A stretch of DNA of 64,000 nucleotides from Candidatus Falkowbacteria bacterium UBA1359 (GCA_002306385.1 DBRV01000003.1:861-64860), one strand, 5' to 3'. Counted from the first letter of the stretch, positions 1-57,527 are shown. Numbers and translations: made by a program. Notes: generated from the letters alone by a model not told the origin.

Positions 1-1313
1 TCGTAATAAGAATTTAGCCCACTATCCAAATGAAAAACGTGTTCTCCCTGCAGAGCTTTACGAACATAAAGGGGTAATTCACCTTTACTTTCGGCAATCT
101 GTTCTTGCGCTTGCATATTAATTTTACCGACATTTAAAGCCCAATCTTCTTGATATTTAAGTAATATCTCCTTGTGAGGAACATCCTCTGGAATGCGACC
201 ATTATACTCTGTGGCGAGAACCCTAATCCATGATAATAATTCAGGGGTCGATGGCCTTTTTTGTATCTTTGGATTTTCGTGATACTGATAAAAAACAGAA
301 ATGGCATAATTTAATAATTCTTTTTGTATCCCGGGAAAATTTAACTCAACAATTTGAGATAAATCAGACCGGCTTGGATAATCAACATAGTGATATAAAC
401 TTCGCCTGCGGAATGATGGCGGAATTTTATCTGAATCTTCTGTATTTGTTGTGACTATAATTCTTAAATTCTTTTTATCACCCTTTACAACAGTACCCGT
501 TTCATTAATAGTAAAGGTTAAATTTTCAATTTCATCTAAGATTCCTGTCATTAACTCTTCACGACCTTTTTCAATCTCATCTATAAGTAAATATATTTTT
601 TTACCTTTTCCCGATTGATAAATAGCCTCTCCTAATGGCCCTAGATCAATATAATTAAGATAGTCTAAGTCTTTAGATGTTTCACCCAGCTCAACAACAG
701 CTCTCATTTTAGCTTTAAATGCCATATATCCTTTATCTGTTGTGGGGTCTATCTCGCCACTAACTATTTTTTGCTTCCAAAACATAGCCTCATCTTTGAT
801 TTCTTCTGGCACCTGGGCCCGAGACTGGGCATCACTTAATCTTCTTACATCATCAACACTATATAATAAATCCTGGGCTCTCATTGTGTCCTTAACCCGA
901 ATATGAATAAGGGCAACATCTTTACCCTCTTGTAGCTCTTGGCCAACCTCTGAATAAGCCCATTGCGTTTTACCAGTGCCAGGTTCACCCTCTAAGATAA
1001 CAGAATTACAATCACCGCTCTCTGCCAAAACATCTAAAACCTCCTTAACGGCCTGCAGTTCCGCAGACACCACATATGGCCTCTCCATTCTTTCATTTAT
1101 TTCCGTCAAACTATGCCGCATCCTATCAAGTTGCTCCTCTTTTTTACCAATAGTTTTTATTATATTTTCTTTCCCCCTAGACTCTTCGGTAATCATGCTT
1201 AATTTTTCTTCAAGGAAGTCAATTTTTGCCAACAAACTAGACAATATAGACTTAAAAACTTCGGGGTCTTCAACTTCATCAATTTGTGGCTGTAATTCAA
1301 AATTTTTCCTCAT
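1..1313 (-). CDS. AAA+ ATPase, MoxR/AAA_5-like, with coiled-coil N-terminus; partial (C-terminus beyond window edge)
   Basis: Absent from the ORF track because it has no stop in the window. My minus-strand translation starts at ATG 1313-1311: MRKNFELQPQIDEVEDPE... It shows VILEGEPGTGKT (Walker A), IYLLIDEIEKGREELMTGILDEIENLTFTI (Walker B plus MoxR-like helix), LRIIVTTN (sensor 1) and PPSFRRRSLYHYVDYP. The frame stays open to nt 3. Confidence 0.75.
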   Translation of the reverse strand, partial: MRKNFELQPQIDEVEDPEVFKSILSSLLAKIDFLEEKLSMITEESRGKENIIKTIGKKEEQLDRMRHSLTEINERMERPYVVSAELQAVKEVLDVLAESGDCNSVILEGEPGTGKTQWAYSEVGQELQEGKDVALIHIRVKDTMRAQDLLYSVDDVRRLSDAQSRAQVPEEIKDEAMFWKQKIVSGEIDPTTDKGYMAFKAKMRAVVELGETSKDLDYLNYIDLGPLGEAIYQSGKGKKIYLLIDEIEKGREELMTGILDEIENLTFTINETGTVVKGDKKNLRIIVTTNTEDSDKIPPSFRRRSLYHYVDYPSRSDLSQIVELNFPGIQKELLNYAISVFYQYHENPKIQKRPSTPELLSWIRVLATEYNGRIPEDVPHKEILLKYQEDWALNVGKINMQAQEQIAESKGELPLYVRKALQGEHVFHLDSGLNSYY

Positions 1314-1325
1314 AAAATTATAAGT

Positions 1326-1508
1326 TTAGTTGTTTTCAAAATTTTTAATATCTTCTTCAATCTTGGTGATTTTTTGTATCGCCTTATCTAAGACAGACTT
1401 TTTATAGGCTTGTAATTTTGTATTATGTCTTGCGTCAGCATTAATAACCTTTGATTTTATTGGAGGATTTGCTTTATTGATACCTCCCAAAATATTGTTT
1501 TTACTCAT
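1326..1508 (-). CDS. hypothetical small Lys-rich protein (60 aa), co-oriented with the AAA+ ATPase
   Basis: ORF-track ORF. Its stop lies 12 nt upstream of the AAA+ start on the same strand. I recognise no family. Confidence 0.45.
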   Translation of the reverse strand: MSKNNILGGINKANPPIKSKVINADARHNTKLQAYKKSVLDKAIQKITKIEEDIKNFENN

Positions 1509-1706: not shown

Positions 1707-1745
1707 TTCAAAAAAGAAAAAGCGGCAACACTTAGGCTACCGCTT
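1707..1745 (-). terminator. Rho-independent terminator of the radical-SAM cassette
   Basis: Minus strand reads AAGCGGTAG-cctaagtg-TTGCCGCTT followed by TTTCTTTTTT. It lies 33 nt downstream of the stop at 1778. Confidence 0.6.
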
Positions 1746-1777: not shown

Positions 1778-2770
1778 TTACTTCTTGTATTTATCCATAT
1801 AGATATGAGCAAGTTGACCGCAACATAACCCCGCCTCTTCACATTTAGCAATGGTGTCAACGACAACATTGAGGCCTAACGCGCGAATTTCGTCTCCTCT
1901 CTGCTTAAGGAGATCGAAATTACGATAATTCGCGAAGGCCTTAAGGCCATCCCGATCACCGCGTGTAGTCTTGTTGAGAGGAATCAGCTTAATTGCGAAT
2001 TTTGCGGGATCCAACCCCTTGAGTTTTTCAGGATCAAGCTCCCAGCCATCGCCACAGATGAAGTTCAGCGTTATCGTCCTATCTGTGACAGTGTGCTGAT
2101 CAAAGAATTCGACAAGACGAACAAGTGGAACAACCTTAGCTCCGTGAAAGAGCCAATGTCTTTCTTCTTCGCTTGTTGAATTAATTGACAGCTGAAGATG
2201 TAGGAATCCTCCGAATACTTCTTCCTTGACCCGCAGGACTTCCTCCAAAATTTCAAATGGCGAAGCTCCGTGAATTGTCGTGTCGGGCACGATGGAGTTG
2301 TAGCAAGGCAGGAATCGAAAATCACCCCAGGGGTGATTCTTGAGATATCGAATCGCCTCCAACACATTACACCAGTTTAGGGCTGGCTCACCCATTCGGG
2401 CGAATCCGATTTTCGCCTTCTTGGTTTTTTGAACATGAGGCGATTCTCGAATGATCAAGTCGATTTGCTCGATGATCTGCTCTGCACTTAAATTACCACG
2501 AAATGGCAGCAGAGGCACATCGCAGAAACGACATTGATAGCCACAACCAAGCTGAGTCGAAACGGTCATCAGCCACTTTTCTTCATAAGGAACAAGGTTT
2601 GCCCGAATCAGCTCTATATCATCGGTGACGAGAACTTCGGGATGTTCCTTGCCAGTTACGTCCTGCATCTCCGTGCATTCCACGATGTATGGATCACCTT
2701 TTTCATCTGTTGTTTCACAGATGAAAATTCTGCCACTTGGCAGCTCGACGACATCCTTTAAGGTTATCAT
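1778..2770 (-). CDS. radical SAM enzyme, RlmN/Cfr-like core without the N-terminal domain
   Basis: CX3CX2C motif GCGYQCRFC (C76/C80/C83, nt 2522-2545). MGEPALNW, LQLSINSTSEEER, IKLIPLNK and C-terminal CCGQLA are collinear with E. coli RlmN MGEPLLN, AISLHAPNDEIR, INLIPWNP and ACGQLA, as I recall that sequence. Confidence 0.75.
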   Translation of the reverse strand: MITLKDVVELPSGRIFICETTDEKGDPYIVECTEMQDVTGKEHPEVLVTDDIELIRANLVPYEEKWLMTVSTQLGCGYQCRFCDVPLLPFRGNLSAEQIIEQIDLIIRESPHVQKTKKAKIGFARMGEPALNWCNVLEAIRYLKNHPWGDFRFLPCYNSIVPDTTIHGASPFEILEEVLRVKEEVFGGFLHLQLSINSTSEEERHWLFHGAKVVPLVRLVEFFDQHTVTDRTITLNFICGDGWELDPEKLKGLDPAKFAIKLIPLNKTTRGDRDGLKAFANYRNFDLLKQRGDEIRALGLNVVVDTIAKCEEAGLCCGQLAHIYMDKYKK

Positions 2771-3495
2771 TGCTTTTTCTCCTTTCTTTGGAATTTTTGC
2801 GCCAACTTTGTGGCGTCGTAATCTTCGTAGACCAAATTGTCGGGCATGAAATAATAGTTATAGTCGCCATCAGCTAAAAATCTAACTTGCGGAAATTCGT
2901 CTTGAAGCGTCTGTCGAATTTTATTGAAATCGGCAACAACACCTCTGCATTCCCGCACTGTCAGTTTGGGAACAAACGAGTAGAACCGAATCCACTCGCG
3001 AATCCAATCTGAGCTCTGGCCGACATAAACCACTACTACTCGTGCACGAGAGAATCTCAGAAGTCGCGTCAGTTCTTCCCTGCGAACCTCTGAAATCGTG
3101 TGTGTGGACACCACAACCTGGTGGAATCCGAGAAGTTCAATCATTGCCAGTTTATCAAGCAAATCCTCGTTTGTGTGGAGATCAACTTGACGATTATGCT
3201 TGTGGCAGATAGCAACGATTGTTTCGAGCGTTGAGAAATTCTCCTTTAGCTCGAACAAGGGGTCGCCACCGCCAGAAACAGAAACCTTCGGCCCAGTAAA
3301 TCTTCCGATACACCAATCTAGATAATCCCAATCAATTGTTTGTTTCTCCCGCTTCAGCCGATGATTAGCAAAAGCACAGAAAAAACATCGTTTTGCACAA
3401 CCGAAATTTGTAACAATGGAAAAATTCCTTTCCTGACAACATAAAGTGCTGTCGGATTCAAATTTCTCCTTTCGTACCTGCGTTATCATGGTCAT
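2767..3495 (-). CDS. small radical SAM protein (242 aa), activase/QueE-sized
   Basis: CX3CX2C motif GCAKRCFFC (C33/C37/C40, nt 3376-3399). SVSGGGDPL is a glycine-rich SAM motif. ATGA overlap with the downstream gene at 2767-2770. SD GGAGG at 3497-3501 favours the third-codon ATG (3489) as the true start. Confidence 0.7.
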   Translation of the reverse strand: MTMITQVRKEKFESDSTLCCQERNFSIVTNFGCAKRCFFCAFANHRLKREKQTIDWDYLDWCIGRFTGPKVSVSGGGDPLFELKENFSTLETIVAICHKHNRQVDLHTNEDLLDKLAMIELLGFHQVVVSTHTISEVRREELTRLLRFSRARVVVVYVGQSSDWIREWIRFYSFVPKLTVRECRGVVADFNKIRQTLQDEFPQVRFLADGDYNYYFMPDNLVYEDYDATKLAQKFQRKEKKQ

Positions 3496-3572
3496 TCCTC
3501 CTTTTTATTTGAATTATCAATGTACAAAACCCCTGATAGGTTTATCAACAATAATACAAAATGTTCGAAATG

Positions 3573-4118
3573 TCAATCTTTGCAGACCTCGCTAACGATC
3601 TTTCTCAAATATGAGAAACGAGAATGAATCTTGGGATCAGTTACCTTTTGCCAAGCGGATTCATCTCCATTTAAAAGATAATCACGTAACTGAGTGGCGC
3701 TAATGCCGTCGCGTTCGACTTTTTCAAACTTCATATCATAATTTTTATACAACCACTCTAATTTTGTCTCGCTTCCACCATAGACAACTTCGGGAATTTT
3801 CCCAGTATAAAATTGACAGAAAGAAACTATCCAATTACCCCATTCGCGATATTCCCCCTCGGTCTTAGGAATACCATGCAGGTCTGGGAAAAACCCAATT
3901 TTTAATCGTTTATTATCACCATAGATTCTTTTTATCAAATCTATCCTATCCAGAACGTTGAAAGGATTTCTTTTGCTGCCATACGATTGGCATTCACCAA
4001 CAAGCAAAATTGCTTCTTCGCACTCAGAAAGCATTTTATCGATGACTTTCTGATGGCCAAGTTGAATGTGTTGAAATCGACCATGAAATAACCCAAATTT
4101 GTATTTGTATGATCCCAT
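3573..4118 (-). CDS. cytidylyltransferase-fold nucleotidyltransferase, NadM/NadR (NMN adenylyltransferase)-like
   Basis: N-terminal GLFHGRFQHIQLGH matches the GRFQPxHxGH HIGH-type motif. ISATQLRDYL matches the ISxTxxR motif. SD GAGGGGG at 4127-4133 lies 8 nt from the ATG. Confidence 0.65.
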   Translation of the reverse strand: MGSYKYKFGLFHGRFQHIQLGHQKVIDKMLSECEEAILLVGECQSYGSKRNPFNVLDRIDLIKRIYGDNKRLKIGFFPDLHGIPKTEGEYREWGNWIVSFCQFYTGKIPEVVYGGSETKLEWLYKNYDMKFEKVERDGISATQLRDYLLNGDESAWQKVTDPKIHSRFSYLRKIVSEVCKD

Positions 4119-4439
4119 AAATATTACCCCCTCATATAATTACTTATTTAATTTTATTATAACAGTTAATAATTGAAAAATCTATTAAAGTTTGCGGTCA
4201 TTCATTATTGCTGAAAACCCAAAAATCTGCCAAAATAAAGACATAAATTACAATTACTATAATCAAAGAGGCTGGAACTTCACCAGAAACACTGCTAAAA
4301 ATTAAACAAGTATTGGACGTTATTCAGAACTGACATGCTCTCAATCCAGAGAACAAGTTTTTTGAATTTGAGCTCGACGGATTCGGCATAGATTTAAAAA
4401 ATGCAGATACCTACTTAGAGCTCCTAGATATCTTTGAGG

Positions 4440-4793
4440 GATTAAAAAATATCAGATGCTTCATGAAAAGTACTATCACACAGAGATCACAGAGAAAAAG
4501 CATATAGCAAAGGCACATCGCAAAAATCGCTCAATTAAACAATAAGCTAAGGGAGACTGAGGCCAGGGCTGAACACTGGTTGGAATTAACCAAAAGGACA
4601 TTCAGTTTTACCGCTTATGCACGAGCCGAATTGCTTAAGGCTACTGAAATGGGCAAAACGGGGTCAAAACTGAAGAAAAAATTCTTCTTGCATTAAGCCA
4701 AAGCCCTAAAATTAAAGATGGAGAGCTAGTGATCAAGTCCAACGAATGGTTTGTGCCGATACAAAAGATTCTGCACTGGAAAAGAAATACTTA
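4440..4793 (+). pseudogene. decayed C-terminal remnant of a large serine recombinase (integrase)
   Basis: Reading ...IAQLNNKLRETEARAEHWLELTKRTFSFTAYARAELLKATEMGKTGSKLKKK, then a frameshift in an A-run, then ILLALSQSPKIKDGELVIKSNEWFVPIQKI. This resembles the coiled-coil and C-terminal tail of recombinase-family proteins. It has multiple stops and frameshifts and no catalytic N-terminal domain. Limits are approximate. Confidence 0.45.
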
Positions 4794-4861
4794 GCGTTAG
4801 AACCGACAAAATTGCCACTAAATAAAGCAAAAACGTAGACTCTGGCCTCTATTCGTAACAC

Positions 4862-7541: not shown

Positions 7542-10500
7542 TTAACCAGCGACTCGCCAAATTTCTTCTAAACTTGTCTCGCCATTAGCTGCTTTAATTA
7601 AACCATCATGGACCATTAGCAGTGAGCCTTGTTTAATGGCCAATTTCTCAAGTTCAGCTTCAGTAGTCAAGGGTTGCTGAATTAATTTTTGCATTTCTGG
7701 AGTAATAATAATAACTTCATAAATACCTAGACGGCCATTATAGCCAATACCACGACACTGAGGACAACCAACTGGTCCATAAAACTGAGGCTTATCCGGC
7801 AACTTTAAGTCTGGCCGCTTACGTAAAAACTCCCAAGCTGGTTCAGCTTGTTCCCAAATATCTGCTGATGGAGTAATGGGTTTTTTACAGTAAGGACACA
7901 AACGTCTAACTAACCGCTGGCCAATAGAGCACTCCAGAGCACTAGCCAGCATCGGCCGGTCAACACCCAGTCCAGCAAAACGAGCAATGGCGCTAGCCGC
8001 ACTATTAGCGTGAATAGTAGATAGAACTAAATGACCAGTTAAACTTGCCTCAATGGCCGTTTTAGCTGTCTCAGGGTCACGAATCTCGCCAATCATAATA
8101 ATATTAGGATTCTGACGTACCAAAGAACGAAGCGCTGCGGCAAAAGTATAGCCACTGGCAGTATCAATTTGAGTTTGCATTACTCCGTCAAGATGATATT
8201 CAATTGGATCTTCAACAGAGATAATTTTAACTTCAGGGGTATTTAATTTTTTAAGTAAAGCATAAAGAGTAGTAGTTTTACCTGCACCGGTAGGACCAGT
8301 AGTAATAATAATACCTTTAGTCTTATGAATAGATTTGTCAATAAGGGATAAAGAGACATCGCGGATGCCTAGATCAGACAAGTCTAAACTAATAGATTGA
8401 CTGGACAGTAAACGGATGACTACAGTTTCTCCATAACCACCAGTAATTAAAGAAACACGACAGTCCATCCGCTCTTGCGGCAAAATCATGCTAAAACGAC
8501 CATCAAAAGTAGGTTGTTTAACGCTTAATGGCAAGCCAATTAAATTTTTAATTTCCCCAATTAATGGAACATAATGCTCCGCACCTAAAGTAACAATATC
8601 ATATAAGATGCCGTCAAGACGATAACGAATTTTTACACCACCCTCAATAGGGTCAATATGAACATCGGCGGCTTTACTGGCAATAGCGCCAGCCATTATG
8701 GCGGTGAGCATCTCACTGGTTGGTTTATTGGCTAATAATGTACCTGCCTGATTTATGTCTTTAGCTATGGCCTCACCAAATTGTAAATCCGCCTCTTTAA
8801 TAGTTAACCCGCGCCCCAGGGTCTGGGAGACAACAATATCATATAAGTCATCAATATAATCCGTCTTGCCCACTACCCTCAAAACTTCTTCCAGTGAAGT
8901 CTGGCCATCAAGCATTTTTAAGATTCCGTCTTGGAGCATAGTAACCATCCCATCTTCAATAGCTTGCCGCATTACCTTAAACGAAGGCGCTCCTTCGTTA
9001 AGCAAAACCTTCATCGGTTCGGTCATGGTAAAAATTTCAAAAATACCAACCCGCCCCTTATAACCAAAACCCGAACAATGCGGGCAGCCTGGCCCTGCTT
9101 TATAGAATACTGGTAATTCTTTAGGCACATCTATATTAGCCTTAGGCGAAATAACTGCTAAAATTTTATTAATTTGCTTCCGTTCTTCTTCGGTTGGTTC
9201 ATGGACCTGTCGACAGTAGGGACATAATTTGCGAACTAAACGCTGGCCAATAACAGCATTAATAGCTGGCGCTAGTTGATAGGGCTGCACCCCCAAATCA
9301 ATTAACCGGGGCAGTACACCAGCAGCATCATTAGTATGAAGAGTAGAAAATACTAGATGACCAGTCAGACTAGCCTGAATGGCAATATTTGCAGTATCAG
9401 CATCACGAATCTCCCCGACCATAATAATATTAGGATCCTGCCGTAAAATTGACTTTAAACCATTAGCAAAAGTGTAGCCTCGGCTTTCATCAACTTGACT
9501 TTGGTTAATTCCCTCCAGCTCATACTCAATGGGGTCCTCCAGGGTAATAATCTTAACGTCCGGAGAGTTTAATTTATTCAGTATAGCATATAGGGTGGTC
9601 GTCTTGCCTGATCCAGTGGGACCAGTAGTTAAAATAAGACCATTAGGTTTAGCCATCTGCTGTTCTAATATGGCCCGGACTGCTGGCCGCATCCCTAAAC
9701 TATCTAGAGGCAAAATAGCTGACTCAGGCCGCAGTAATTTTAAAACAACACTTTCACCATAAGCTGTCGGTAAAAATGAAGCCCTAACAGCTATTTTTTC
9801 TTTAGGGAGAAAAATATCAAAACGGCCATCCTGTGGCTTATTTTCTACATTTATCTTCACCCTGGCCACAACTTTAAGACGGGCTAGGACTCTCTTCCAA
9901 TCAGCTTTAGGAAGAGAGGCTACGTGTTGTAAAACTCCGTCTACTCTCATTCTAATTGCCACCTCATTTTCTTCGGCCTCAATATGGACATCACTACTCT
10001 CTGTTTTTAGAGCGGCAGCAATGATTAAAGTCATAATTTGACTTATATTACCTTCTTTTAACCTCTCATTAAGTGACTTAAAATCGCTCAATTCTTCTTG
10101 ATAGCGCACTAAATCAGCTGGACTAATTTCTACACCCTCTAAACGTTTAATCTTGGGTAGAGTGTCATAAACCCTAAGGCCATACCCTAAACTACGGGGG
10201 GAAATCAAATAAAGCTTGCTTTTAACATGATATTGATTTTTTAATTCTTCTATCTTGCGGGTTAGGCGATCACTTGGTTTAGTTGTGCCAATTCTAATAT
10301 TGTCTCCAACATAGTAAAAACAAATAGCCTGCAAGTTTTCAGCCTCTTCTCGACTTAATAAGACAATTGCCTCAGGACTAATGGGAAAATTAGTCAAATC
10401 AATATATGATAACCCCAATTGAGCTGCTTGAGCCGCTACCTCATTTTCGATGGCCTGTTCGCGTAATTCTTGTTCCCGACGTGCCAATTGCGCAGCGGGG

Positions 10501-10571
10501 GAATTTTTTTCTTGTAGTGATTTACTATTTAATAAATCCTCAATGGATAAATTGTCACTTTCTTCTGTCAT
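7542..10571 (-). CDS. tandem-fused GspE/PilB-type secretion ATPase (two complete ATPase modules in one 1009-aa chain)
   Basis: Module 1 (aa 1-568): GSPII-N-like N-terminus, GPTGSGKTTT (nt 9600-9623), IIMVGEIRD, TGHLVFSTLHTND, CPYC..CPHC. Module 2 (aa 569-1009): GPTGAGKTTT (nt 8274-8297), IIMIGEIRD, TGHLVLSTIHANS, CPYC..CPQC. The junction reads VVG|KTDY at 8868. Confidence 0.85.
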   Translation of the reverse strand: MTEESDNLSIEDLLNSKSLQEKNSPAAQLARREQELREQAIENEVAAQAAQLGLSYIDLTNFPISPEAIVLLSREEAENLQAICFYYVGDNIRIGTTKPSDRLTRKIEELKNQYHVKSKLYLISPRSLGYGLRVYDTLPKIKRLEGVEISPADLVRYQEELSDFKSLNERLKEGNISQIMTLIIAAALKTESSDVHIEAEENEVAIRMRVDGVLQHVASLPKADWKRVLARLKVVARVKINVENKPQDGRFDIFLPKEKIAVRASFLPTAYGESVVLKLLRPESAILPLDSLGMRPAVRAILEQQMAKPNGLILTTGPTGSGKTTTLYAILNKLNSPDVKIITLEDPIEYELEGINQSQVDESRGYTFANGLKSILRQDPNIIMVGEIRDADTANIAIQASLTGHLVFSTLHTNDAAGVLPRLIDLGVQPYQLAPAINAVIGQRLVRKLCPYCRQVHEPTEEERKQINKILAVISPKANIDVPKELPVFYKAGPGCPHCSGFGYKGRVGIFEIFTMTEPMKVLLNEGAPSFKVMRQAIEDGMVTMLQDGILKMLDGQTSLEEVLRVVGKTDYIDDLYDIVVSQTLGRGLTIKEADLQFGEAIAKDINQAGTLLANKPTSEMLTAIMAGAIASKAADVHIDPIEGGVKIRYRLDGILYDIVTLGAEHYVPLIGEIKNLIGLPLSVKQPTFDGRFSMILPQERMDCRVSLITGGYGETVVIRLLSSQSISLDLSDLGIRDVSLSLIDKSIHKTKGIIITTGPTGAGKTTTLYALLKKLNTPEVKIISVEDPIEYHLDGVMQTQIDTASGYTFAAALRSLVRQNPNIIMIGEIRDPETAKTAIEASLTGHLVLSTIHANSAASAIARFAGLGVDRPMLASALECSIGQRLVRRLCPYCKKPITPSADIWEQAEPAWEFLRKRPDLKLPDKPQFYGPVGCPQCRGIGYNGRLGIYEVIIITPEMQKLIQQPLTTEAELEKLAIKQGSLLMVHDGLIKAANGETSLEEIWRVAG

Positions 10572-10575
10572 AGAT

Positions 10576-12282
10576 TTAACCTATTTGGTTTTTACGTTCA
10601 TTAACATAGTTAGTCCAATCCTCAACCATATTTACTAAAAACTTAAACGGAGTCTCAATTATAAAATCTAGAAAAAAAACAAAAACGTTAATTTTACTAA
10701 ATTTTTCACTTAAGTATTTACCAACTGAAAGAACTGGCAAGCTAAAAAAGTCAAAAATAGTGCGCCATAAATTTTCTTTTTCTTCAGTAATTTTAAGCTC
10801 ATTGGTAACCTTCTTGATTCGAATGATAAAAAAACTAACAAATACCAAGAAAAATAAGAAAATTAATATACTAACCCAGGTAAAATGAAATATAGTCAGT
10901 AACCAGATAATAGCCCCAAAGGTTATAATAAAAGCTAATCCATATAAGAAATTAAAAATCTTCCTCAAAACACTAGTTTTTTTCTGAGATACCCTTAAAA
11001 TTATTGGTTCTGACCGCTTATATTCTTCAAAAGACAGTTCATTCACTAGTTTAATAATCTTCTCTGTATTATTTTCGTCAGGTACTTTAGTAACTAAAAC
11101 TGAAAAGAACAACAAAGTTGGAGGAAAAAGAATATTAAATAATAGGGCCAACGGTTCAATCTCTGCGCCAAATATCTTATTAGCTGGAATCTCTAGAAGA
11201 ATAACTAAAACACCTTTAGTAATAAAAATATAGATGATACTACGGACAGCGGCTCGCCATAATAATTTTTTAGCTTTAGTATACTTTGTCTCACAAATTT
11301 TCTTAATTTGTCTAGAAAAGGCCTGGGGATCAGTTTTAAAGCTGGTATAAATCCCTACCGGATCTTGGCGTAATAACTCTAATGAAACAGAAACCGCTAC
11401 GGCATAACGGCTAATAATTTTATCAAGTGGCTCAGCAAGCGGGTGTCTTAATTGGCTATTAACAACATTGCGAATTTTCTCAATATTTTTAGCTACCGTT
11501 GGCCAGAGATTCTCAGGTAAATTTTGCCAATCTGCAATATAGTATTTAAATAAAATAAAAGTCAGCATGTCGTCATCTAACTTAGCAAAATTTCGGTTAA
11601 TGGAAAGATAAATTTGAATTGGCAAATCCTTAGCTAGCTCTTGCTGATCAGCTAATTGAATATTTTTAGATAGATATTCATAGAGATTTTTAATAGCTTG
11701 ATTTAATACAGGGTCTTGGCTAAGACGAGCTTCAATTTCGCTAGCTGCTACTGCCAGTAACCAATCCACTAACTGATTATGCTTAGCTATTTCGTCTCTA
11801 ATCTCCCTTAAATCTCTTTTGGTTAAATCCTTACTTATTTCTTTACTTATACTAGGGGCAGCAATATTTTTAATTACCAAATATTTTTTAATAATAACTG
11901 CTACTTCATCAATAAGGCTCAGGGGTAGTTGATTATTTGGCAAATAACCACCACGAATTAATTCTGTTAATAAATGTTCACTAATTTCTGCCGCTTGGCA
12001 CTCTTTAGTATCTCCTTCAATTACGGTTTTGCGTCGTAAAATTCGTTTAATTGCCTCTTTACGGAGCAAATATTCTTCCTTATATTCCACCACATTACGG
12101 ATTTTTTCATAAAAAAAGGCCATGCGGGAAATAACGCTAGAAACCTTAATTTTAGGCTGATCTGATGTATCTTTGACCTGACTATGTTGAGTACGATAAA
12201 TTACTTGCAACAATTGTTTAGTGTTAACATTGGCGGTTAAAGTAAAAGAGGCCTGTTTATGTAACTTAGGATTGAGTATCAT
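10576..12282 (-). CDS. hypothetical membrane protein (about 340-aa cytoplasmic helical N-domain plus about 5 C-terminal TM helices)
   Basis: ORF-track ORF. Its stop lies 4 nt before the tandem ATPase start. Hydrophobic helices from about aa 345. No T2SSF/PilC motifs recognised. Confidence 0.6.
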   Translation of the reverse strand: MILNPKLHKQASFTLTANVNTKQLLQVIYRTQHSQVKDTSDQPKIKVSSVISRMAFFYEKIRNVVEYKEEYLLRKEAIKRILRRKTVIEGDTKECQAAEISEHLLTELIRGGYLPNNQLPLSLIDEVAVIIKKYLVIKNIAAPSISKEISKDLTKRDLREIRDEIAKHNQLVDWLLAVAASEIEARLSQDPVLNQAIKNLYEYLSKNIQLADQQELAKDLPIQIYLSINRNFAKLDDDMLTFILFKYYIADWQNLPENLWPTVAKNIEKIRNVVNSQLRHPLAEPLDKIISRYAVAVSVSLELLRQDPVGIYTSFKTDPQAFSRQIKKICETKYTKAKKLLWRAAVRSIIYIFITKGVLVILLEIPANKIFGAEIEPLALLFNILFPPTLLFFSVLVTKVPDENNTEKIIKLVNELSFEEYKRSEPIILRVSQKKTSVLRKIFNFLYGLAFIITFGAIIWLLTIFHFTWVSILIFLFFLVFVSFFIIRIKKVTNELKITEEKENLWRTIFDFFSLPVLSVGKYLSEKFSKINVFVFFLDFIIETPFKFLVNMVEDWTNYVNERKNQIG

Positions 12283-29514: not shown

Positions 29515-30030
29515 TTATTTGTTAACAATAACCACCGCCTTTTGTCCGGCAGAAATCTGCCGGATTATTGTTGCCCGTTGGTTGTTTCCCCAGCCAACGG
29601 TAAAAACTAAGGTCCCCACAGGTACCCTAGCCTCAACGAGGCTGGCTTCCCCGGGGTTCAAAATTATTCCAGCGAATGGACCATCCAAAACGACGATCCG
29701 ATAATCACTAGCATTCACTAGTCTTGCCAAAGTGGTGCCGAAGATAGCTTGGCCCATTACCTGATTAGCTAAGTCAAGCCAGGCTTGACTAGTCTCGGGA
29801 GTTGTGGCTTCACGGGCCTTTTGCAAATAATAGGCCCGTAAATTTGTCCAGTCTTGGTCACCCCTCAACTGGATCCAATTCTCAGCAGGTAGGACGCCTT
29901 TCGCGTCAACAGCTAAAATCTGTTGACCGTTGGCGTCCAGCCCAACCTCCACTCTGGCCGTATTGCTGCTACAAGCAGCAATAACTAGAGCAATAATCAC
30001 TAGGGCGATAAAAAAGTATGGGCGTCTCAT
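29515..30030 (-). CDS. lipoprotein of unknown function, compositionally foreign
   Basis: Signal peptide with lipobox LVIAAC-S. SD GGAGG at 30037-30041. Hand G+C counts are 32/60 (29581-29640) and 33/60 (29881-29940). Confidence 0.7.
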   Translation of the reverse strand: MRRPYFFIALVIIALVIAACSSNTARVEVGLDANGQQILAVDAKGVLPAENWIQLRGDQDWTNLRAYYLQKAREATTPETSQAWLDLANQVMGQAIFGTTLARLVNASDYRIVVLDGPFAGIILNPGEASLVEARVPVGTLVFTVGWGNNQRATIIRQISAGQKAVVIVNK

Positions 30031-32558: not shown

Positions 32559-33695
32559 TTATTTACGAAGGGGGACTACAATATATTGATATTCATTACT
32601 ACCGGGTAGAGTTATTTCACATGCACTAATACCATCAATTATTTTGAATAAAACCTGATTAACCGGAAGAATATTAAGGCAATCTAATAAATAGCGATAA
32701 TTTAAGCGGATAGAGTTATCTTTACCATTTATTTGGGCAGCTAATTTTGCCTGATGGCTTCCAATTTGTCCTGACACAGCTTCAATTATTATTTCTTGCT
32801 GATCAGCATTAATAGTCAAATCAACGGCATTAGAATTGGCGCTAAAAATGGAGGCCATTTTTATGGCTCTTAAAAATTCTCCTCGGTCAATAGTTATTTC
32901 AGTTTTAAAATCAGTAGGAATAACTTGAATATAATCAGGATAATGTCCTTCAATTAAACGGGACACTATCTCTATTCCTTGATAAACAAATAAGACTTGA
33001 TTGTCAGCGATATGTATCTGTATTTGATCACTATCTTCAGTTAATTCATCGTTGGAAAAATTAATAATTCTTGCTAATTCCTGCATGGTCTTAAAAGGAA
33101 CAATAATTTTAAGTCCTTCTGAATCTAGAGTGCCAAAATCTAGATGAAAATTAATTTCTTTTTTAGCTAAACGGAAACTATCTGTAGATACTAGATTGAT
33201 ATATTTATTATTAATATCGAATAAAACCCCAGTTAATTCTAGCCGATTATCAGTAGGATTAATGGCAAATAAAAGTTGATTAAGGGCCAACTTTAAATCA
33301 GAAACAGCTAAAGTGAGACTGATTTTTTTATCAATTTGAGGAATTACTGGAAAATCTTCAGCATTTTGTCCTTTTATAATAGTATTGTATTTTTTACAAT
33401 TAATTTTTAAATCTTGTTTATTTATTAATTGAATATCAATTTTTTCGTTAGGCAAAAGAGCAATATAATCACTAAAAATTTTAGCATCTATAGCAATTGC
33501 TCCCTCTTTATTAACTTTACCTCTAATTTGCTTAGTGATGCCTATTTCTAAGTTAGTAGCTGCTAAAGTAATAATGTTATCTTTTGCTTTAATTAAAATA
33601 TTATTTAAAATAGGCATACTAAGATTTTTTTCGGCAATATGGCTAACAATGGTTAATCCTTGATGTAAATTTTTTTGAAGAATAGTTAATTGCAT
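32559..33695 (-). CDS. dnaN: DNA polymerase III beta sliding clamp
   Basis: 378 aa with a three-domain clamp pattern (MQLTILQKNLHQGL..., LEITGVLF, SFRLA), immediately downstream of dnaA. Confidence 0.9.
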   Translation of the reverse strand: MQLTILQKNLHQGLTIVSHIAEKNLSMPILNNILIKAKDNIITLAATNLEIGITKQIRGKVNKEGAIAIDAKIFSDYIALLPNEKIDIQLINKQDLKINCKKYNTIIKGQNAEDFPVIPQIDKKISLTLAVSDLKLALNQLLFAINPTDNRLELTGVLFDINNKYINLVSTDSFRLAKKEINFHLDFGTLDSEGLKIIVPFKTMQELARIINFSNDELTEDSDQIQIHIADNQVLFVYQGIEIVSRLIEGHYPDYIQVIPTDFKTEITIDRGEFLRAIKMASIFSANSNAVDLTINADQQEIIIEAVSGQIGSHQAKLAAQINGKDNSIRLNYRYLLDCLNILPVNQVLFKIIDGISACEITLPGSNEYQYIVVPLRK

Positions 33696-33896
33696 AATAA
33701 TTATTTTAATATAGATTATATTATTAATAATAGCTGGAAAAAAGTTGATAAGTCTTTTTTACGTATAATATTAGTTAAAAATATTAGTATTTGAATTGTG
33801 GATAAAGAGAGAAATTATTGTTAATAACAAGTATATAAATTAATTAAAAATTTTTAGTCAGTGGATAAATAAAAGTTATAAACTATTTAATCACAA
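33696..33896. other. oriC part 1: AT-rich dnaA-dnaN intergenic region with DnaA boxes
   Basis: Perfect TGTGGATAA at 33797-33805. AGTGGATAA at 33860-33868. AGTTGATAA-like at about 33743. A very AT-rich tract at 33696-33790. Confidence 0.6.
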
Positions 33897-35282
33897 TTAA
33901 TACACCGAAGTAATTGATTGAGATATTTGTTCAATATCTTGTCTAATTTTAGAATTATTTTGAATATCTCGCTCAATTTTCGCACAAGCATGCATCGCAG
34001 TAGTATGGTCTCGTCCACCTAATTCTTGACCAATAAAAGGGAAAGAAGCATCCATTCTGGTTCTTAATAAATACATAGCTATTTGTCTGGGGATAACCAA
34101 TTCTTTTTTACGGCTACTGCCGGTAAGTTCAGATAAATTTAGGTTATAAAAATTAGCCACCGCTTCTAATATTTTTTGGGGAGTAGATAGATTATTAGCT
34201 TGAATGGAAATAAAAAAATCTTTTAGTACTTGCTTGGCGATAGATAAATCTGGTTCACAATTATGGAATTGGCAGAAACCAATAATTCTATTAAGTGCTC
34301 CCTCTAGTTCACGAATATTATTACTAATATTCGTGGCAATGTATTGAATAATTGATTGGTCTAAGGGAAAGTTTTTCTGTTGGCATTTAGAATTTAAGAT
34401 AGCCATTCTGGTTTCTAAATCAGGTTGCCCAATATCAGCAACCATACCCCATTCAAAACGCGTAATAAGACGAGCCTCTACAGCTTTCATATTTCTCGGT
34501 GAACGGTCAGAAGTAATAACTATTTGTTTATTGGCTCGGTGGAGCTGATCAAAAGTATAAAAAAATTCTTGTTGGGTACCATCTTTGCCAGCCATAAATT
34601 GTATGTCGTCAACTAGTAATAAGTCTACATTTCTGTAGACACTCTTAAAAGTATTACCCTGTCCATGATAGACGGCATCAACATAATCATTAGTAAATTT
34701 TTCTGAGGTAACATATAGGACTTTTTTACCAGATTTGAGTACTTCATGACCAATAGCTTGGAGAAGGTGAGTTTTACCTAAACCGACGCCACCATAGATA
34801 AAAAGAGGGTTATATGTTTCTCCGGGTTGGCGGATAGCTGCCCATGAAGCGGCATGAGCTAATTCATTATGTTTACCTACGATAAAGGTTTCAAAAGTAT
34901 ATTTAGGATTAAGACCAGCTGCCAGGCAAAGTGATTCATCTTTTGAGGGGTTAGTTTTATAGGCCTTATTCTCTTTTTCTTCAGGAGGGTCAGGAGCAAG
35001 AAAATTGCTTTTAGCTTCCTTGGGCTTAGTTTTGATAATATATTTTATCCCTTTAAGCTTATTACCGGTAACTTTATAAAAAGTTTTAGTAATATCTTTG
35101 GAAAATTTATTTTCAAACCAAGCCTGAGTGAAGGCATTAGGAACACCAATAGTTAAAATGTCATCTTGATAATCAAAAATAAAAGAATTCTTAAACCAGG
35201 TGGTAAAACTGGCTTTAGACATGTTCAGTTCAGCTTCACTAAGGATAGCTTGCCAAATTTGTTCTAGGGAGGAGTGATCCAT
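33897..35282 (-). CDS. dnaA: chromosomal replication initiator DnaA
   Basis: Walker A GGVGLGKTHL, Walker B LLLVDDIQF, and the DNA-binding domain VIPRQIAMYL...GGRDHTT. Confidence 0.97.
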   Translation of the reverse strand: MDHSSLEQIWQAILSEAELNMSKASFTTWFKNSFIFDYQDDILTIGVPNAFTQAWFENKFSKDITKTFYKVTGNKLKGIKYIIKTKPKEAKSNFLAPDPPEEKENKAYKTNPSKDESLCLAAGLNPKYTFETFIVGKHNELAHAASWAAIRQPGETYNPLFIYGGVGLGKTHLLQAIGHEVLKSGKKVLYVTSEKFTNDYVDAVYHGQGNTFKSVYRNVDLLLVDDIQFMAGKDGTQQEFFYTFDQLHRANKQIVITSDRSPRNMKAVEARLITRFEWGMVADIGQPDLETRMAILNSKCQQKNFPLDQSIIQYIATNISNNIRELEGALNRIIGFCQFHNCEPDLSIAKQVLKDFFISIQANNLSTPQKILEAVANFYNLNLSELTGSSRKKELVIPRQIAMYLLRTRMDASFPFIGQELGGRDHTTAMHACAKIERDIQNNSKIRQDIEQISQSITSVY

Positions 35283-36238: not shown

Positions 36239-36958
36239 ATGAAGCATTTATTTACTATTCTTTTTTATCAGCCAGTACTCAATCTTCTGGTTTGGTTTTA
36301 TAATATTTTGCCTGGTCATGACATGGGAGTAGTTATTATTGCTCTAACAATCCTGGTTAAGTTAATTTTGTGGCCACTTTCTCAGAAGTCGTTAAAGTCG
36401 CAACAGGCCATTAATCGTCTTCAGCCAAAAATTAAAGAAATTCAAAATAAATATAAAAATGACAAGGAAAAACAGGGTCAGGCCCTAATGGATCTTTATC
36501 GTCAAGAAAAGGTTAACCCCGCCTCTTCTTGTTTGCCCCTTTTAATTCAGTTGCCACTATTATGGGCGGTGTTTATGGTTTTTCGTGATGGTCTTTCTAA
36601 CCAGTCGCTATCATTGGTCTATCCATTTATTAGTAGACCAGAATTGTTAAAAACTACATTTTTTGGTATAATAGATTTAGCTAAACCAAATGAAATTTTG
36701 GCAGTAGCTACAGGATTAGTTCAATTTTTTCAGAGTAAAATTTCGGCTCATTATACTATGCCTGCTAATACTGGTAATGGCCGGGCAGATAATCTTACGG
36801 CAATGATGAGCAAGCAGATGATATTTATGATGCCCATTATGACAGTTATAATCTGTTGGACTCTACCGAGTGGTTTAGCAATGTATTGGTTGTTTTCTAG
36901 TCTCTTTACAATTTTTCAGCAGCTTTATTGGTTTAAAAAGACTCCTAAGTCAAATTAA
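36239..36958 (+). CDS. yidC: membrane protein insertase YidC (short form)
   Basis: QKSLKSQQAINRLQPKIKEIQNKYKNDKEKQ...LYRQEKVNP..CLPLLIQLP. Start set at ATG 36239, just after the yidD stop. Confidence 0.9.
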   Translation: MKHLFTILFYQPVLNLLVWFYNILPGHDMGVVIIALTILVKLILWPLSQKSLKSQQAINRLQPKIKEIQNKYKNDKEKQGQALMDLYRQEKVNPASSCLPLLIQLPLLWAVFMVFRDGLSNQSLSLVYPFISRPELLKTTFFGIIDLAKPNEILAVATGLVQFFQSKISAHYTMPANTGNGRADNLTAMMSKQMIFMMPIMTVIICWTLPSGLAMYWLFSSLFTIFQQLYWFKKTPKSN

Positions 36959-57426: not shown

Positions 57427-57499
57427 GCGCTCGTAGCTCAGCGGTTAGAGCATCGCTCTTATAAAGCGGGGGTCGATGGTTCAAATCCATCCGGGCGCA
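57427..57499 (+). tRNA. tRNA-Ile(TAT)
   Basis: Hand fold: acceptor GCGCTCG/CGGGCGC, D-arm GCTC-AGCGGTTA-GAGC, anticodon stem TCGCT/AGCGG, loop CTTATAA (anticodon at 57460-57462), T-arm GATGG-TTCAAAT-CCATC, discriminator A. Confidence 0.75.
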
Positions 57500-57527
57500 C
57501 CTAGGCGGGGTATAAATTTTGTTATGG

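What the first reader, a model, noticed from the sequence alone, without database searches (positions are those of the whole stretch)
1778..4133. Foreign cassette: NadM/NadR-type nucleotidyltransferase plus two translationally coupled radical-SAM enzymes, not a pathway I can name
Sequence:
- Three co-oriented minus-strand genes run from 4118 to 1778.
- The two radical-SAM ORFs share an ATGA stop/start overlap at 2767-2770.
- The cassette has its own terminator at 1707-1745.
- It carries strong SDs (GAGGGGG at 4127-4133, GGAGG at 3497-3501). Native genes in this window almost never have one.
- G+C is visibly higher. Hand counts are 27/60 (2101-2160) and 32/60 (2281-2340), against 15/60 (10621-10680) and 21/60 (36301-36360) in native genes.
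- Motifs: GRFQHIQLGH plus ISATQLR (HIGH-type adenylyl/cytidylyltransferase); GCAKRCFFC plus GGGDPL (a minimal 242-aa rSAM); GCGYQCRFC plus CCGQLA (RlmN/Cfr-like).

Context: the cassette lies between a decayed serine recombinase at tRNA-Ser and an AAA+ ATPase gene pair.

Inference: the trio looks like a horizontally acquired module that builds or modifies a nucleotide, for example a C-methylated adenine nucleotide or an NAD-like dinucleotide. Such chemistry is typical of conflict systems (chain-terminator or signal nucleotides) or nucleoside-antibiotic pathways. I cannot assign it to a described system.
Basis: partly seen in the sequence, partly recalled or inferred. Interest (0 to 1): 0.8.

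Follow-up and report, generated by a model that had tools for sequence, protein, structure and literature searches.

The report
Radical-SAM pair wired into NAD metabolism
Three real, intact genes in a Patescibacteria genome form an undescribed module (two partnered radical-SAM enzymes plus an NMN-adenylyltransferase-like enzyme) that in relatives sits inside NrtR-controlled NAD operons and whose enzyme pair is carried by many large phages, pointing to an unknown radical-chemistry branch of NAD metabolism.

Summary
Three co-oriented minus-strand genes (NTase 3573-4118, rSAM1 2767-3495, rSAM2 1778-2770) show an ATGA overlap, their own SDs and terminator, foreign GC3, and strong purifying selection.

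None reaches the curated cut-off of a named family. rSAM2 has the RlmN/Cfr fold. It keeps the methyl-carrier Cys but has Thr in place of the resolving Cys118, and it is short at the N-terminus. rSAM1 is a small, distinct family of minimal rSAMs. The NTase is NMNAT-like.

- **Pairing:** rSAM1 and rSAM2 are adjacent in 32 of 36 dereplicated locus groups, mostly on large phage contigs.
- **Fusion:** the NTase is fused to rSAM1 in at least seven distinct proteins.
- **NAD context:** in cellular relatives the module lies in operons with NrtR and its operator, and variously with NadE, PncA-like, PnuC, NadR-type, NadD, NAD kinase, NadA and Nudix genes. One phage places an rSAM2 copy beside NadV, Prs-like and NadE genes.

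PADLOC, NCBIfam and ten literature searches found no description.

Best reading: an extra, radical-SAM branch of NAD metabolism, most likely adding one carbon to an adenine or pyridine nucleotide that the NTase joins into an NAD-type dinucleotide. The NAD link is strong. The chemistry is inferred.

The parts
3573..4118 (-). NMN-adenylyltransferase-like nucleotidyltransferase (181 aa). It has QLGH where most relatives have HxGH, plus NPF..ER, the invariant W96 and ISATQLR.
   Evidence: CTP_transf_like scores 31 bits and passes its cut-off. The best NCBIfam matches are all NMNAT models but lie far below their cut-offs. All 13 PDB sequence hits are NMNATs, and the family aligns over its full length to MJ0541. 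dN/dS is 0.095 against the L012 orthologue.
4127..4133 (-). Shine-Dalgarno sequence GAGGGGG of the NTase gene
   Evidence: Read directly from the sequence. SD motifs are rare elsewhere in the window.
4151..4233 (-). Two sigma-70-like promoter matches upstream of the cassette: TTGGCA-18-AATAAT and TTTTCA-17-TAAAAT
   Evidence: Consensus scan only. This is not evidence of function.
2767..3495 (-). rSAM1, a minimal radical-SAM enzyme (242 aa; probably 240 aa from the ATG at 3489). Motifs: NFGCxxxCxxC, SGGGDPL, HT, and the C-terminal DYNYYFMPDN.
   Evidence: Radical_SAM scores 26 bits, below its cut-off. It matches phrog_17662 at 4e-14, a family of unknown function. The family has 286 representatives at E<=1e-10. 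The AF2 model has pLDDT 89 and only generic rSAM fold matches. dN/dS is 0.093.
3497..3501 (-). Shine-Dalgarno sequence GGAGG of rSAM1
   Evidence: Read directly from the sequence.
2767..2770 (-). ATGA stop/start overlap joining rSAM1 to rSAM2 (translational coupling). AGGAG at 2779-2783 lies just upstream.
   Evidence: Read directly from the sequence. Overlap or close adjacency of the two genes recurs in the related loci.
1778..2770 (-). rSAM2, an RlmN/Cfr-fold radical-SAM enzyme (330 aa). The cluster motif is C76/C80/C83. Thr69 replaces RlmN Cys118. C317 corresponds to the methyl-carrier Cys. C156 and C316 are additional invariant cysteines.
   Evidence: RlmN scores 52 bits against a cut-off of 290. 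It matches phrog_24834 at 4e-34. Family invariants come from the alignment. PDB alignments place the key residues. The AF2 model has pLDDT 93.5, and the top 10 Foldseek hits are all RlmN-type.
1710..1745 (-). Intrinsic terminator-like hairpin and T-run ending the cassette
   Evidence: Terminator scan: 10-bp stem with 5 GC pairs, followed by TTTCTTTTTT.

Best explanation
The cassette is a compact, horizontally acquired copy of an undescribed NAD-metabolism module. Its core is a two-enzyme radical-SAM unit, rSAM2 (RlmN/Cfr fold) and rSAM1 (minimal rSAM). In cells this unit works with an NMNAT-like adenylyltransferase.

Proposed mechanism (every step is inferred):
1. rSAM2 uses RlmN/Cfr-type chemistry. 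A SAM-derived methyl group is placed on Cys317 and converted to a thiomethylene radical. This adds one carbon to an sp2 ring carbon of a free adenine or pyridine nucleotide rather than RNA.
2. rSAM1 is made alongside rSAM2 through the ATGA overlap. It supplies a second radical step, possibly making up for the missing resolving Cys118.
3. The NTase joins the mononucleotide to AMP from ATP, giving an NAD-type dinucleotide.

In relatives the module lies inside NrtR-controlled (ADP-ribose-responsive) NAD salvage operons. Those operons already contain canonical NadD and NadR-type enzymes, so the module is an extra branch that feeds or chemically diversifies the NAD pool. Large phages carry the pair on its own, plausibly to sustain or alter the NAD pool during infection.

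Shown here: gene integrity, pairing, fusions, NAD-operon embedding and NrtR-type operator sequences. Inferred: substrate, chemistry and physiological role.
For: **Pairing**
- A small rSAM lies next to rSAM2 in 32 of 36 dereplicated locus groups.
- Phage partners share the NFGC, SGGGDP and DYNxYxMPDN motifs.

**Rosetta-stone fusions**
- NTase-rSAM1 fusions occur in L007, L018 and viral L073, and in P0131, P0143, P0147, P0215, P0229 and P0319.

**NAD context in cellular loci**
- L004 and L008: NrtR.
- L007: NadA (398 bits) and NAD kinase.
- L095: NAD kinase and an NAPRTase fragment.
- L093: NadA, a bona fide NadD (161 bits, above the 112 cut-off), an NAD-kinase-like gene, ADP-ribosylglycohydrolase, Nudix genes and NrtR.
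- L103, L105 and L107: NadE, Nudix, rSAM2, (B12 rSAM in L105), small rSAM, NTase, NrtR. In L105 and L107 a PRTase and a PncA-like gene head the operon.
- L109: PncA-like, NadE, Nudix, PnuC, NadR-type, NAD kinase, NadD, rSAM2, small rSAM, NTase, NrtR.

**NrtR-type operators**
- ATAGTGT-N7-ACACTAT has the published GT-N7-AC core.
- It lies at the operon start in L004, L007, L008, L105 and L107, and before nrtR in L008 and L105-L109.

**Phage link**
- Viral L079/L080 carry isochorismatase, Prs-like, NAMPT, macrodomain and NadE genes next to an rSAM2 copy.

**Enzyme features**
- rSAM2 has the RlmN fold (E 2.6e-14). C317 corresponds to the methyl-carrier Cys.
- All PDB relatives of the NTase are NMNATs, and the nicotinamide-stacking Trp is kept.
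- All three genes are under purifying selection.
Against: - No biochemical data exist. The substrate and product are guesses based on fold and context.
- The window itself has no NrtR, Nudix gene or NrtR operator near the cassette.
- rSAM2 lacks the RlmN resolving Cys. It could therefore do non-methylase chemistry, or its extra cysteines (C156, C310, C316) could bind an auxiliary cluster.
- Most phage loci show no NAD genes within about 5 kb of the pair. Their neighbours are mainly DNA methylases and nucleic-acid enzymes.
- The one phage NAD cluster holds a frameshifted, unpartnered rSAM2.
- In the window lineage the first His of the NTase HxGH motif is Gln.
Confidence: 0.45

Rival explanations
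1. A new route to ordinary NAD. The rSAM pair builds or salvages a standard pyridine mononucleotide (NaMN or NMN) from an unusual precursor by radical chemistry. This would be a de novo-like branch replacing NadB/NadC or the whole NadABC route. The NTase simply adenylylates the product.
For: - The module sits where nadABC would sit in NrtR regulons that otherwise hold only salvage genes (L107, L109).
- NadA is adjacent in L007 and L093, with no NadB or NadC in view.
- NadD lies immediately upstream of rSAM2 in L093 and L109.
- Carriers appear to be host-dependent: phages, Patescibacteria and an archaeal-looking contig.
Against: - The RlmN/Cfr fold with a retained methyl-carrier Cys points to one-carbon transfer rather than ring construction.
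- A third, dedicated NTase would be unnecessary if the product were NaMN or NMN, because NadD and a NadR-type enzyme are in the same operon (L109).
- No phosphoribosyltransferase is consistently linked to the module.
Confidence: 0.25
2. A nucleic-acid modification module. The rSAM pair C-methylates or otherwise modifies adenine in phage or host RNA or DNA, for example to escape restriction or anticodon nucleases. The NAD-gene linkage would be secondary.
For: - The only characterised relatives of rSAM2 modify rRNA and tRNA.
- In phages the commonest neighbours are N6/N4 DNA methylases (9 of 145 proteins scanned). RNA ligase, RtcB and PTPS genes appear occasionally.
- One rSAM2 carries an intein, as replication and nucleotide enzymes often do.
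Against: - Repeated fusion of rSAM1 to an NMNAT-like NTase.
- NrtR operators and NAD-operon embedding in more than ten cellular loci.
- rSAM2 has no counterpart of the roughly 80 N-terminal residues of RlmN (alignments start at RlmN residue 83-109) and lacks Cys118.
Confidence: 0.1
3. A conflict system. The cassette makes a toxic or signalling nucleotide, such as a chain terminator or an antimetabolite NAD analogue, for anti-phage defence or attack on a host.
For: - In L004 the cassette lies in a mobile island with CBASS, an S24 repressor and serine recombinases.
- In the window it neighbours an AAA_5 ATPase.
- Viperins are among the structural neighbours of rSAM1, with TM about 0.6.
- A Tad4 anti-Thoeris gene lies near one phage copy.
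Against: - There are no PADLOC hits.
- The viperin similarity is generic rSAM-core similarity. SuiB, LipA and PqqE score the same.
- The genes are co-operonic with housekeeping NAD genes and under a metabolic repressor.
- The pair is far more common in phages than in cells.
Confidence: 0.1
4. Ordinary housekeeping genes that happen to be adjacent: a divergent RlmN, a NadM, and a QueE- or NrdG-type activase.
For: JGI automatic annotation calls rSAM2 homologues RlmN. The NTase hits NMNAT models.
Against: - All scores are 3- to 14-fold below curated cut-offs.
- The RlmN Cys118 position is an invariant Thr, and the N-terminal domain is missing.
- The genes are conserved as a pair or fusion across phages and cells.
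- Composition and SD usage are foreign to the host genome.
Confidence: 0.02

Closest known systems
RlmN/Cfr class A radical-SAM methylases (rRNA A2503 and tRNA A37, C2/C8 methylation)
   Same: Same fold: the top 10 Foldseek hits have E 1e-14 to 1e-10. Also shared are the CX3CX2C cluster, the MGEP SAM motif, and the C-terminal CGQL loop whose Cys aligns with the methyl-carrier Cys355 of RlmN and Cys338 of Cfr.
   Different: - Only 16-18% identity, and 52 bits against a cut-off of 290.
- The resolving Cys118 is an invariant Thr.
- About 80 N-terminal residues of RlmN have no counterpart.
- Extra invariant cysteines C156 and C316.
- It always has a small rSAM partner.
- Its context is NAD metabolism and phage genomes, not translation.
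Archaeal/NadM-type NMN adenylyltransferase (for example MJ0541, PDB 1f9a)
   Same: All 13 PDB sequence hits are NMNATs. The alignment runs the full length and keeps (H/Q)xGH, NPF..ER, the Trp that stacks on nicotinamide, and SxTxxR.
   Different: - 51 bits against a cut-off of 181.
- The motif is HIHxGH (HIQLGH in the window) instead of PFHxGH.
- It is repeatedly fused to rSAM1.
- It coexists in one operon with canonical NadD and a NadR-type enzyme (L093, L109), so it is probably not the housekeeping enzyme.
NrtR regulons of NAD salvage and biosynthesis (Rodionov et al. 2008, PMC2330246)
   Same: NrtR (Nudix plus winged-helix domains) lies adjacent. Palindromes of 21 bp with the GT-N7-AC core lie upstream of the operon and of nrtR. 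The co-regulated genes are classic regulon members: PncA-like, NadE, NadD, PnuC, NadR-type.
   Different: The word 'radical' does not occur in that paper, so it reports no radical-SAM regulon members. The window's own copy lacks NrtR and the operator.
Phage NAD+ reconstitution pathways NARP1/NARP2 (the name and role are cited in bioRxiv 10.1101/2025.06.06.658234; the enzyme composition is from my own knowledge)
   Same: These are phage-borne NAD-related enzymes. One viral contig places an rSAM2 copy beside Prs-like, NAMPT-like and NadE genes.
   Different: NARP1/2 use Prs-like, NAMPT-like and NMNAT enzymes and no radical-SAM proteins. Most phage copies of the pair have no such neighbours.

Membership tests
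RlmN/Cfr (class A rSAM methylases) | CX3CX2C radical-SAM cluster and the RlmN-type fold | tested here: met
   C76/C80/C83 are invariant. The top 10 Foldseek hits are RlmN-type, with TM 0.59-0.65.
RlmN/Cfr (class A rSAM methylases) | C-terminal methyl-carrier cysteine (RlmN C355, Cfr C338) | tested here: met
   C317 in the invariant CCGQL aligns with the Cys of CGQL in Cfr.
RlmN/Cfr (class A rSAM methylases) | Resolving cysteine (RlmN C118) seven residues before the cluster motif | tested here: not met
   The aligned position is Thr69, invariant in 44 family members.
RlmN/Cfr (class A rSAM methylases) | N-terminal accessory (RNA-binding) domain, and a score above the curated cut-off | tested here: not met
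   Alignments begin at RlmN residue 83-109. TIGR00048 scores 52.3 bits against a cut-off of 290, and Cfr models score 41-45 against 468-550.
NadM / archaeal NMNAT | HxGH and SxTxxR nucleotidyltransferase motifs with an NMNAT-specific pocket (NPF..ER and the stacking Trp) | tested here: met
   Full-length alignment to MJ0541. The first His is H in 14 of 18 relatives and Q in the window lineage.
NadM / archaeal NMNAT | Score above the curated equivalog cut-off | tested here: not met
   TIGR01527 scores 51.3 bits against 181.2. NF002243 scores 49.5 against 127.
NadM / archaeal NMNAT | Catalyses NMN + ATP -> NAD + PPi | not testable with these tools
   This needs an enzyme assay.
QueE / NrdG / PflA-type small radical-SAM enzymes | Match to a family model | tested here: not met
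   There is no QueE or PflA hit. NrdG2 scores 18 bits against a cut-off of 131, and MoaA 24 against 325. QueE has TM only 0.50, below many unrelated rSAMs.
Prokaryotic viperin or other catalogued anti-phage defence systems | Match to a PADLOC model | tested here: not met
   There were 0 PADLOC families for all three proteins. The viperin fold similarity is generic.
NrtR regulon (NAD metabolism) | NrtR-type 21-bp palindrome (GT-N7-AC core) upstream of the operon, with NrtR encoded nearby | tested here: inconclusive
   Met in orthologous cassettes L004/L104, L007, L008 and L105-L109. Not met in the window itself, which has no such motif and no Nudix or NrtR gene near the cassette. NrtR binding was not tested.

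The most novel reading that the evidence does not exclude
Phages, Patescibacteria and DPANN-like archaea use this rSAM pair and NTase to make a chemically distinct, C-methylated NAD (a 'private' cofactor). It would still serve redox enzymes but escape NAD-degrading immune effectors or host NAD-consuming enzymes, a form of cofactor camouflage. An equally novel alternative that the evidence does not exclude is a radical-SAM, oxygen-independent third route that builds the pyridine nucleotide itself.
Probability: 0.2. Interest if true: 0.95.

Novelty: categorically new. Interest (0 to 1): 0.8.

Why it matters
NAD biosynthesis is regarded as one of the best-mapped cofactor pathways, and to my knowledge none of its known routes uses radical-SAM enzymes. 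Likewise, no RlmN/Cfr-type enzyme is known to act on anything but RNA.

If true, this module would add new chemistry to NAD metabolism. It is fused to an NMNAT-like enzyme, placed under the NAD regulator NrtR, and carried by many large phages and by ultra-small symbionts. That bears directly on the phage-bacterium arms race over NAD depletion and on how genome-reduced symbionts obtain or personalise cofactors.

It also gives three unannotated protein families a testable functional context.

Tried and rejected
- **Island boundaries.** No repeat of 12 nt or more of the tRNA-Ser region occurs elsewhere in the window. The 4119-4861 stretch gave no recombinase signal.
- **Defence.** PADLOC found nothing.
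- **Viperin or QueE identity for rSAM1.** PDB and BFVD fold searches give only generic rSAM-core matches. PTPS/QueD is adjacent in a single phage locus only.
- **Cultured phages.** rSAM1 has no tblastn hit. A phage-type rSAM1 hits one unannotated faecal phage record. rSAM2 has only distant hits of 23-33% identity with no obvious rSAM1 partner.
- **NrtR operator in the window.** Absent.
- **A Nudix gene or second NTase in the window.** Neither motif was found in any frame.
- **The 205-aa gene beside the L079 rSAM2 as a hidden rSAM1.** hhalign probability is 0.5%.
- **Literature.** Ten full-text searches found no description of the pair or of rSAM enzymes in NAD pathways. Subscription-only papers were not searched.
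- **A pitfall.** My first iterated HMMs for rSAM1 and rSAM2 cross-contaminated. The pairing counts rest on the clustering and the BLAST comparison.
Full report
**1. The observation**

The three minus-strand ORFs are real:
- NTase, 3573-4118, 181 aa.
- rSAM1, 2767-3495, 242 aa.
- rSAM2, 1778-2770, 330 aa.

The sequence features check out:
- The ATGA stop/start overlap lies at 2767-2770.
- GAGGGGG lies at 4133-4127 and GGAGG at 3501-3497.
- GGAGG is only 1 nt from the ATG at 3495, so the ATG at 3489 is the likelier rSAM1 start.
- AGGAG lies 8 nt before the rSAM2 start.
- A 10-bp hairpin and T-run lie at 1745-1710.

The foreign signature is also real.
- All three cassette genes have SD-like motifs. 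Of the 39 other ORFs of at least 150 aa, 34 have none.
- GC3 is 0.47 (rSAM2) and 0.45 (rSAM1), against 0.27-0.33 in neighbouring genes. The NTase stands out less, at 0.36.
- The genes are intact and constrained. Against the L012 orthologues, dN/dS is about 0.09 for the NTase and rSAM1. For rSAM2, pN is 0.08 and synonymous sites are saturated.

Some contextual details did not hold.
- The 'decayed serine recombinase' at 4119-4861 is not supported.
- No att-like repeat of tRNA-Ser was found.
- Downstream there is a single AAA_5 ATPase gene plus a 60-aa ORF.

The window comes from a Patescibacteria-group MAG contig of 95 kb. NCBI names these proteins only 'radical SAM protein' and 'hypothetical protein'.

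**2. What the proteins are**

No protein reaches the curated cut-off of a named functional family.
- The NTase passes only the generic Pfam CTP_transf_like model. Its best NCBIfam hits are all NMNAT models, at 51 bits against a cut-off of 181.
- rSAM2 scores 52 bits for RlmN, against a cut-off of 290.
- rSAM1 scores 24 bits for MoaA, against a cut-off of 325.
- PADLOC finds nothing.
- PHROGs places both rSAMs in phage families of unknown function: phrog_24834 at 4e-34 and phrog_17662 at 4e-14.

*rSAM2.* A confident AF2 model (pLDDT 93.5) matches RlmN structures at E 1e-14 to 1e-10. A roughly 10^6-fold gap separates these from the next fold. In alignments, Cys317 of the invariant CCGQL corresponds to the methyl-carrier Cys of RlmN and Cfr. 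The resolving Cys118 position is an invariant Thr69. About 80 N-terminal residues of RlmN have no counterpart. C156 and C316 are extra invariant cysteines.

*rSAM1.* This is a single-cluster minimal rSAM. It has invariant SGGGDP, HT and Arg positions and a C-terminal DYNxYxMPDN motif. Its model (pLDDT 89) gives only generic rSAM-core matches: SuiB, viperins, LipA, PqqE and QueE. The family is small: 286 representatives at E<=1e-10 among 1.84 billion.

*NTase.* All 13 solved relatives are NMN adenylyltransferases. The family aligns end to end with MJ0541. It keeps (H/Q)xGH, NPF..ER, SxTxxR and a Trp. From my own knowledge of the archaeal NMNAT structures, that Trp stacks on nicotinamide.

**3. 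The pair is the conserved core, and it is mainly viral**

- rSAM2 has at least 400 database homologues at roughly 50% identity.
- A scan of 185,579 species genomes found 8 loci. IMG/VR gave 69 loci, many on contigs of 90-400 kb.
- After dereplication at 90% identity there are 36 locus groups. A small rSAM lies beside rSAM2 in 32 of them, often overlapping it.
- The four exceptions are one contig end (L027), two contigs of one frameshifted phage copy (L079 and L080), and one locus with no partner (L087).
- The phage partners are true rSAM1 homologues. The alternative small rSAM in L004 and L008 is a probable remote homologue, with hhalign probability 84% over nearly its full length.
- Nothing else is conserved around the pair in phages. 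Among 145 neighbouring proteins, the commonest family is N6/N4 DNA methylase, with 9 members.
- A 74%-identical rSAM2 with its partner lies on phage-like contigs.
- No cultured phage has a close copy.

**4. The NTase belongs to the same pathway**

NTase-rSAM1 fusion proteins occur in several lineages:
- L007.
- L018.
- Viral contig L073.
- P0131, P0143, P0147, P0215, P0229 and P0319.

The window-type gene order, NTase then rSAM1 then rSAM2, recurs in other CPR-like contigs. L012-L016 add a Nudix gene. L098-L100 and L102 repeat the trio, and L102 has an extra B12-binding rSAM.

**5. The module is embedded in NAD metabolism**

Cellular loci (gene contents):

| Locus | Genes beside the module |
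|---|---|
| L004, L008 | B12 rSAM, rSAM2, small rSAM, NTase, NrtR |
| L007 | NadA, NTase-rSAM1 fusion, rSAM2, NAD kinase |
| L095 | Fusion, rSAM2, NAD kinase, NAPRTase fragment |
| L093 | Nudix, NadA, Nudix-like, DUF1152, ADP-ribosylglycohydrolase, NAD-kinase-like, bona fide NadD, rSAM2, small rSAM. Nearby: a second window-type NTase, an NMNAT-methyltransferase fusion, a PRK-family kinase, a HAD phosphatase and NrtR |
| L103, L105, L107 | NadE, Nudix, rSAM2, (B12 rSAM in L105), small rSAM, NTase, NrtR. In L105 and L107 a PRTase (QRPTase_N domain) and a PncA-like isochorismatase head the operon |
| L109 | PncA-like, NadE, Nudix, PnuC, NadR-type NMNAT/AAA_28 protein, NAD kinase, NadD, rSAM2, small rSAM, NTase, NrtR |

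NrtR-type operators.
- The sequence ATAGTGT-N7-ACACTAT carries the published GT-N7-AC core of 21-bp NrtR sites (PMC2330246).
- It lies at the start of the operon in L004/L104, L007, L008, L105 and L107.
- It lies just before nrtR in L008 and L105-L109.
- In 1.46 Mb of fetched DNA, the GTGT-N7-ACAC core otherwise hits almost only a conserved coding position inside gut-phage rSAM2 genes.

Viral support. Viral contigs L079 and L080 hold isochorismatase, Prs-like, NAMPT, macrodomain and NadE genes next to an rSAM2-family gene. That copy is frameshifted and has no partner.

**6. Interpretation**

L093 and L109 carry canonical NadD, and L109 also a NadR-type enzyme, in the same gene cluster. The window-type NTase and the rSAM pair are therefore not replacements for standard steps. 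They form an additional branch.

The most economical chemistry for an RlmN/Cfr-fold enzyme that keeps the methyl-carrier Cys is one-carbon addition to an sp2 ring carbon. With the N-terminal region missing and an NMNAT-like partner present, the likeliest substrate is a free adenine or pyridine nucleotide. The NTase would make or consume the corresponding NAD-type dinucleotide.

rSAM1 is translationally coupled to rSAM2 and fused to the NTase in several lineages. It presumably performs a second radical step, possibly compensating for the missing Cys118.

My estimates:
- The NAD link itself is about 0.85 likely.
- The specific 'C1-modified NAD-type dinucleotide' reading is about 0.45.
- A radical route to ordinary NaMN, NMN or NAD is about 0.25.

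Nucleic-acid modification, a conflict-system toxin or signal, and housekeeping roles are less likely, for the reasons given under the rival explanations.

**7. Comparison with known systems and novelty**

The module resembles RlmN/Cfr, archaeal NMNAT and NrtR regulons. It fails the membership tests for the first two. It meets the operator criterion for NrtR regulons only in orthologous loci, not in the window itself.

No description of the pair, or of radical-SAM enzymes in NAD pathways, turned up in:
- NCBIfam (June 2026 release).
- Pfam.
- PADLOC.
- PHROGs annotations.
- Ten full-text literature searches.

I therefore rate it as a new kind of NAD-linked enzyme system. Two caveats apply: the function is inferred from context, and subscription-only literature was not searched.

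Noticed in passing
window 57427-57501: tRNA-Ile with anticodon TAT (UAU). Bacteria usually decode AUA with a lysidine-modified CAU tRNA, so this is unusual.
   Followed up: no
window 29515-30030 (-) and 49628-51049 (+): These are the only other genes with a strong SD (AAGGAGGTGT) in a genome where most genes have none. Both lie in GC-richer 1-kb bins (0.433 and 0.421). They may be further foreign genes or highly expressed ones.
   Followed up: no
window 33001-34000: A very AT-rich kilobase (GC 0.249) contains the palindrome GTATTGTATTTTTTACAATTA at 33382.
   Followed up: no
window 7542-10571: A 1009-aa protein made of two tandem GspE/PilB-type ATPase units. It is conserved in related Patescibacteria MAGs (90%-identity cluster of 76 members).
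   Followed up: partly
window 3-1313 (-) and 1326-1508 (-): An AAA_5 (MoxR/McrB-like) ATPase runs off the window start and is preceded by a 60-aa ORF. Its function and any link to the cassette are unknown.
   Followed up: partly
L085 6735-8789: An rSAM2 homologue on a 394-kb viral contig is interrupted by an intein with a LAGLIDADG endonuclease domain.
   Followed up: partly
L004 1-17041: The extended cassette sits in a mobile island on a 284-kb contig. It is flanked by two large serine recombinases and accompanied by CD-NTase plus Cap15 (CBASS), an S24 repressor and ParB.
   Followed up: partly
L093 5500-6957: A 485-aa protein fuses an NMNAT-like N-terminal domain to a class I SAM methyltransferase. 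It lies beside the window-type NTase in an NAD/ADP-ribose gene island. This is another hint of methylated adenylylated nucleotides.
   Followed up: partly
L033 3050-4021 and 9285-10256: Two identical copies of rSAM2, together with the same flanking ORFs, lie 6.2 kb apart on a viral contig. This could be a duplication, a terminal repeat or an assembly artefact.
   Followed up: no
L105 272-1543: A borderline Phage_integrase-domain protein (26.4 bits against a cut-off of 27.1) lies immediately upstream of the NrtR-controlled NAD super-operon. The whole operon may be mobile.
   Followed up: no
phage loci used in alignment A4: One neighbour of the phage rSAM pair matches the Thoeris inhibitor Tad4 (E 1e-32). 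The locus was not identified.
   Followed up: no
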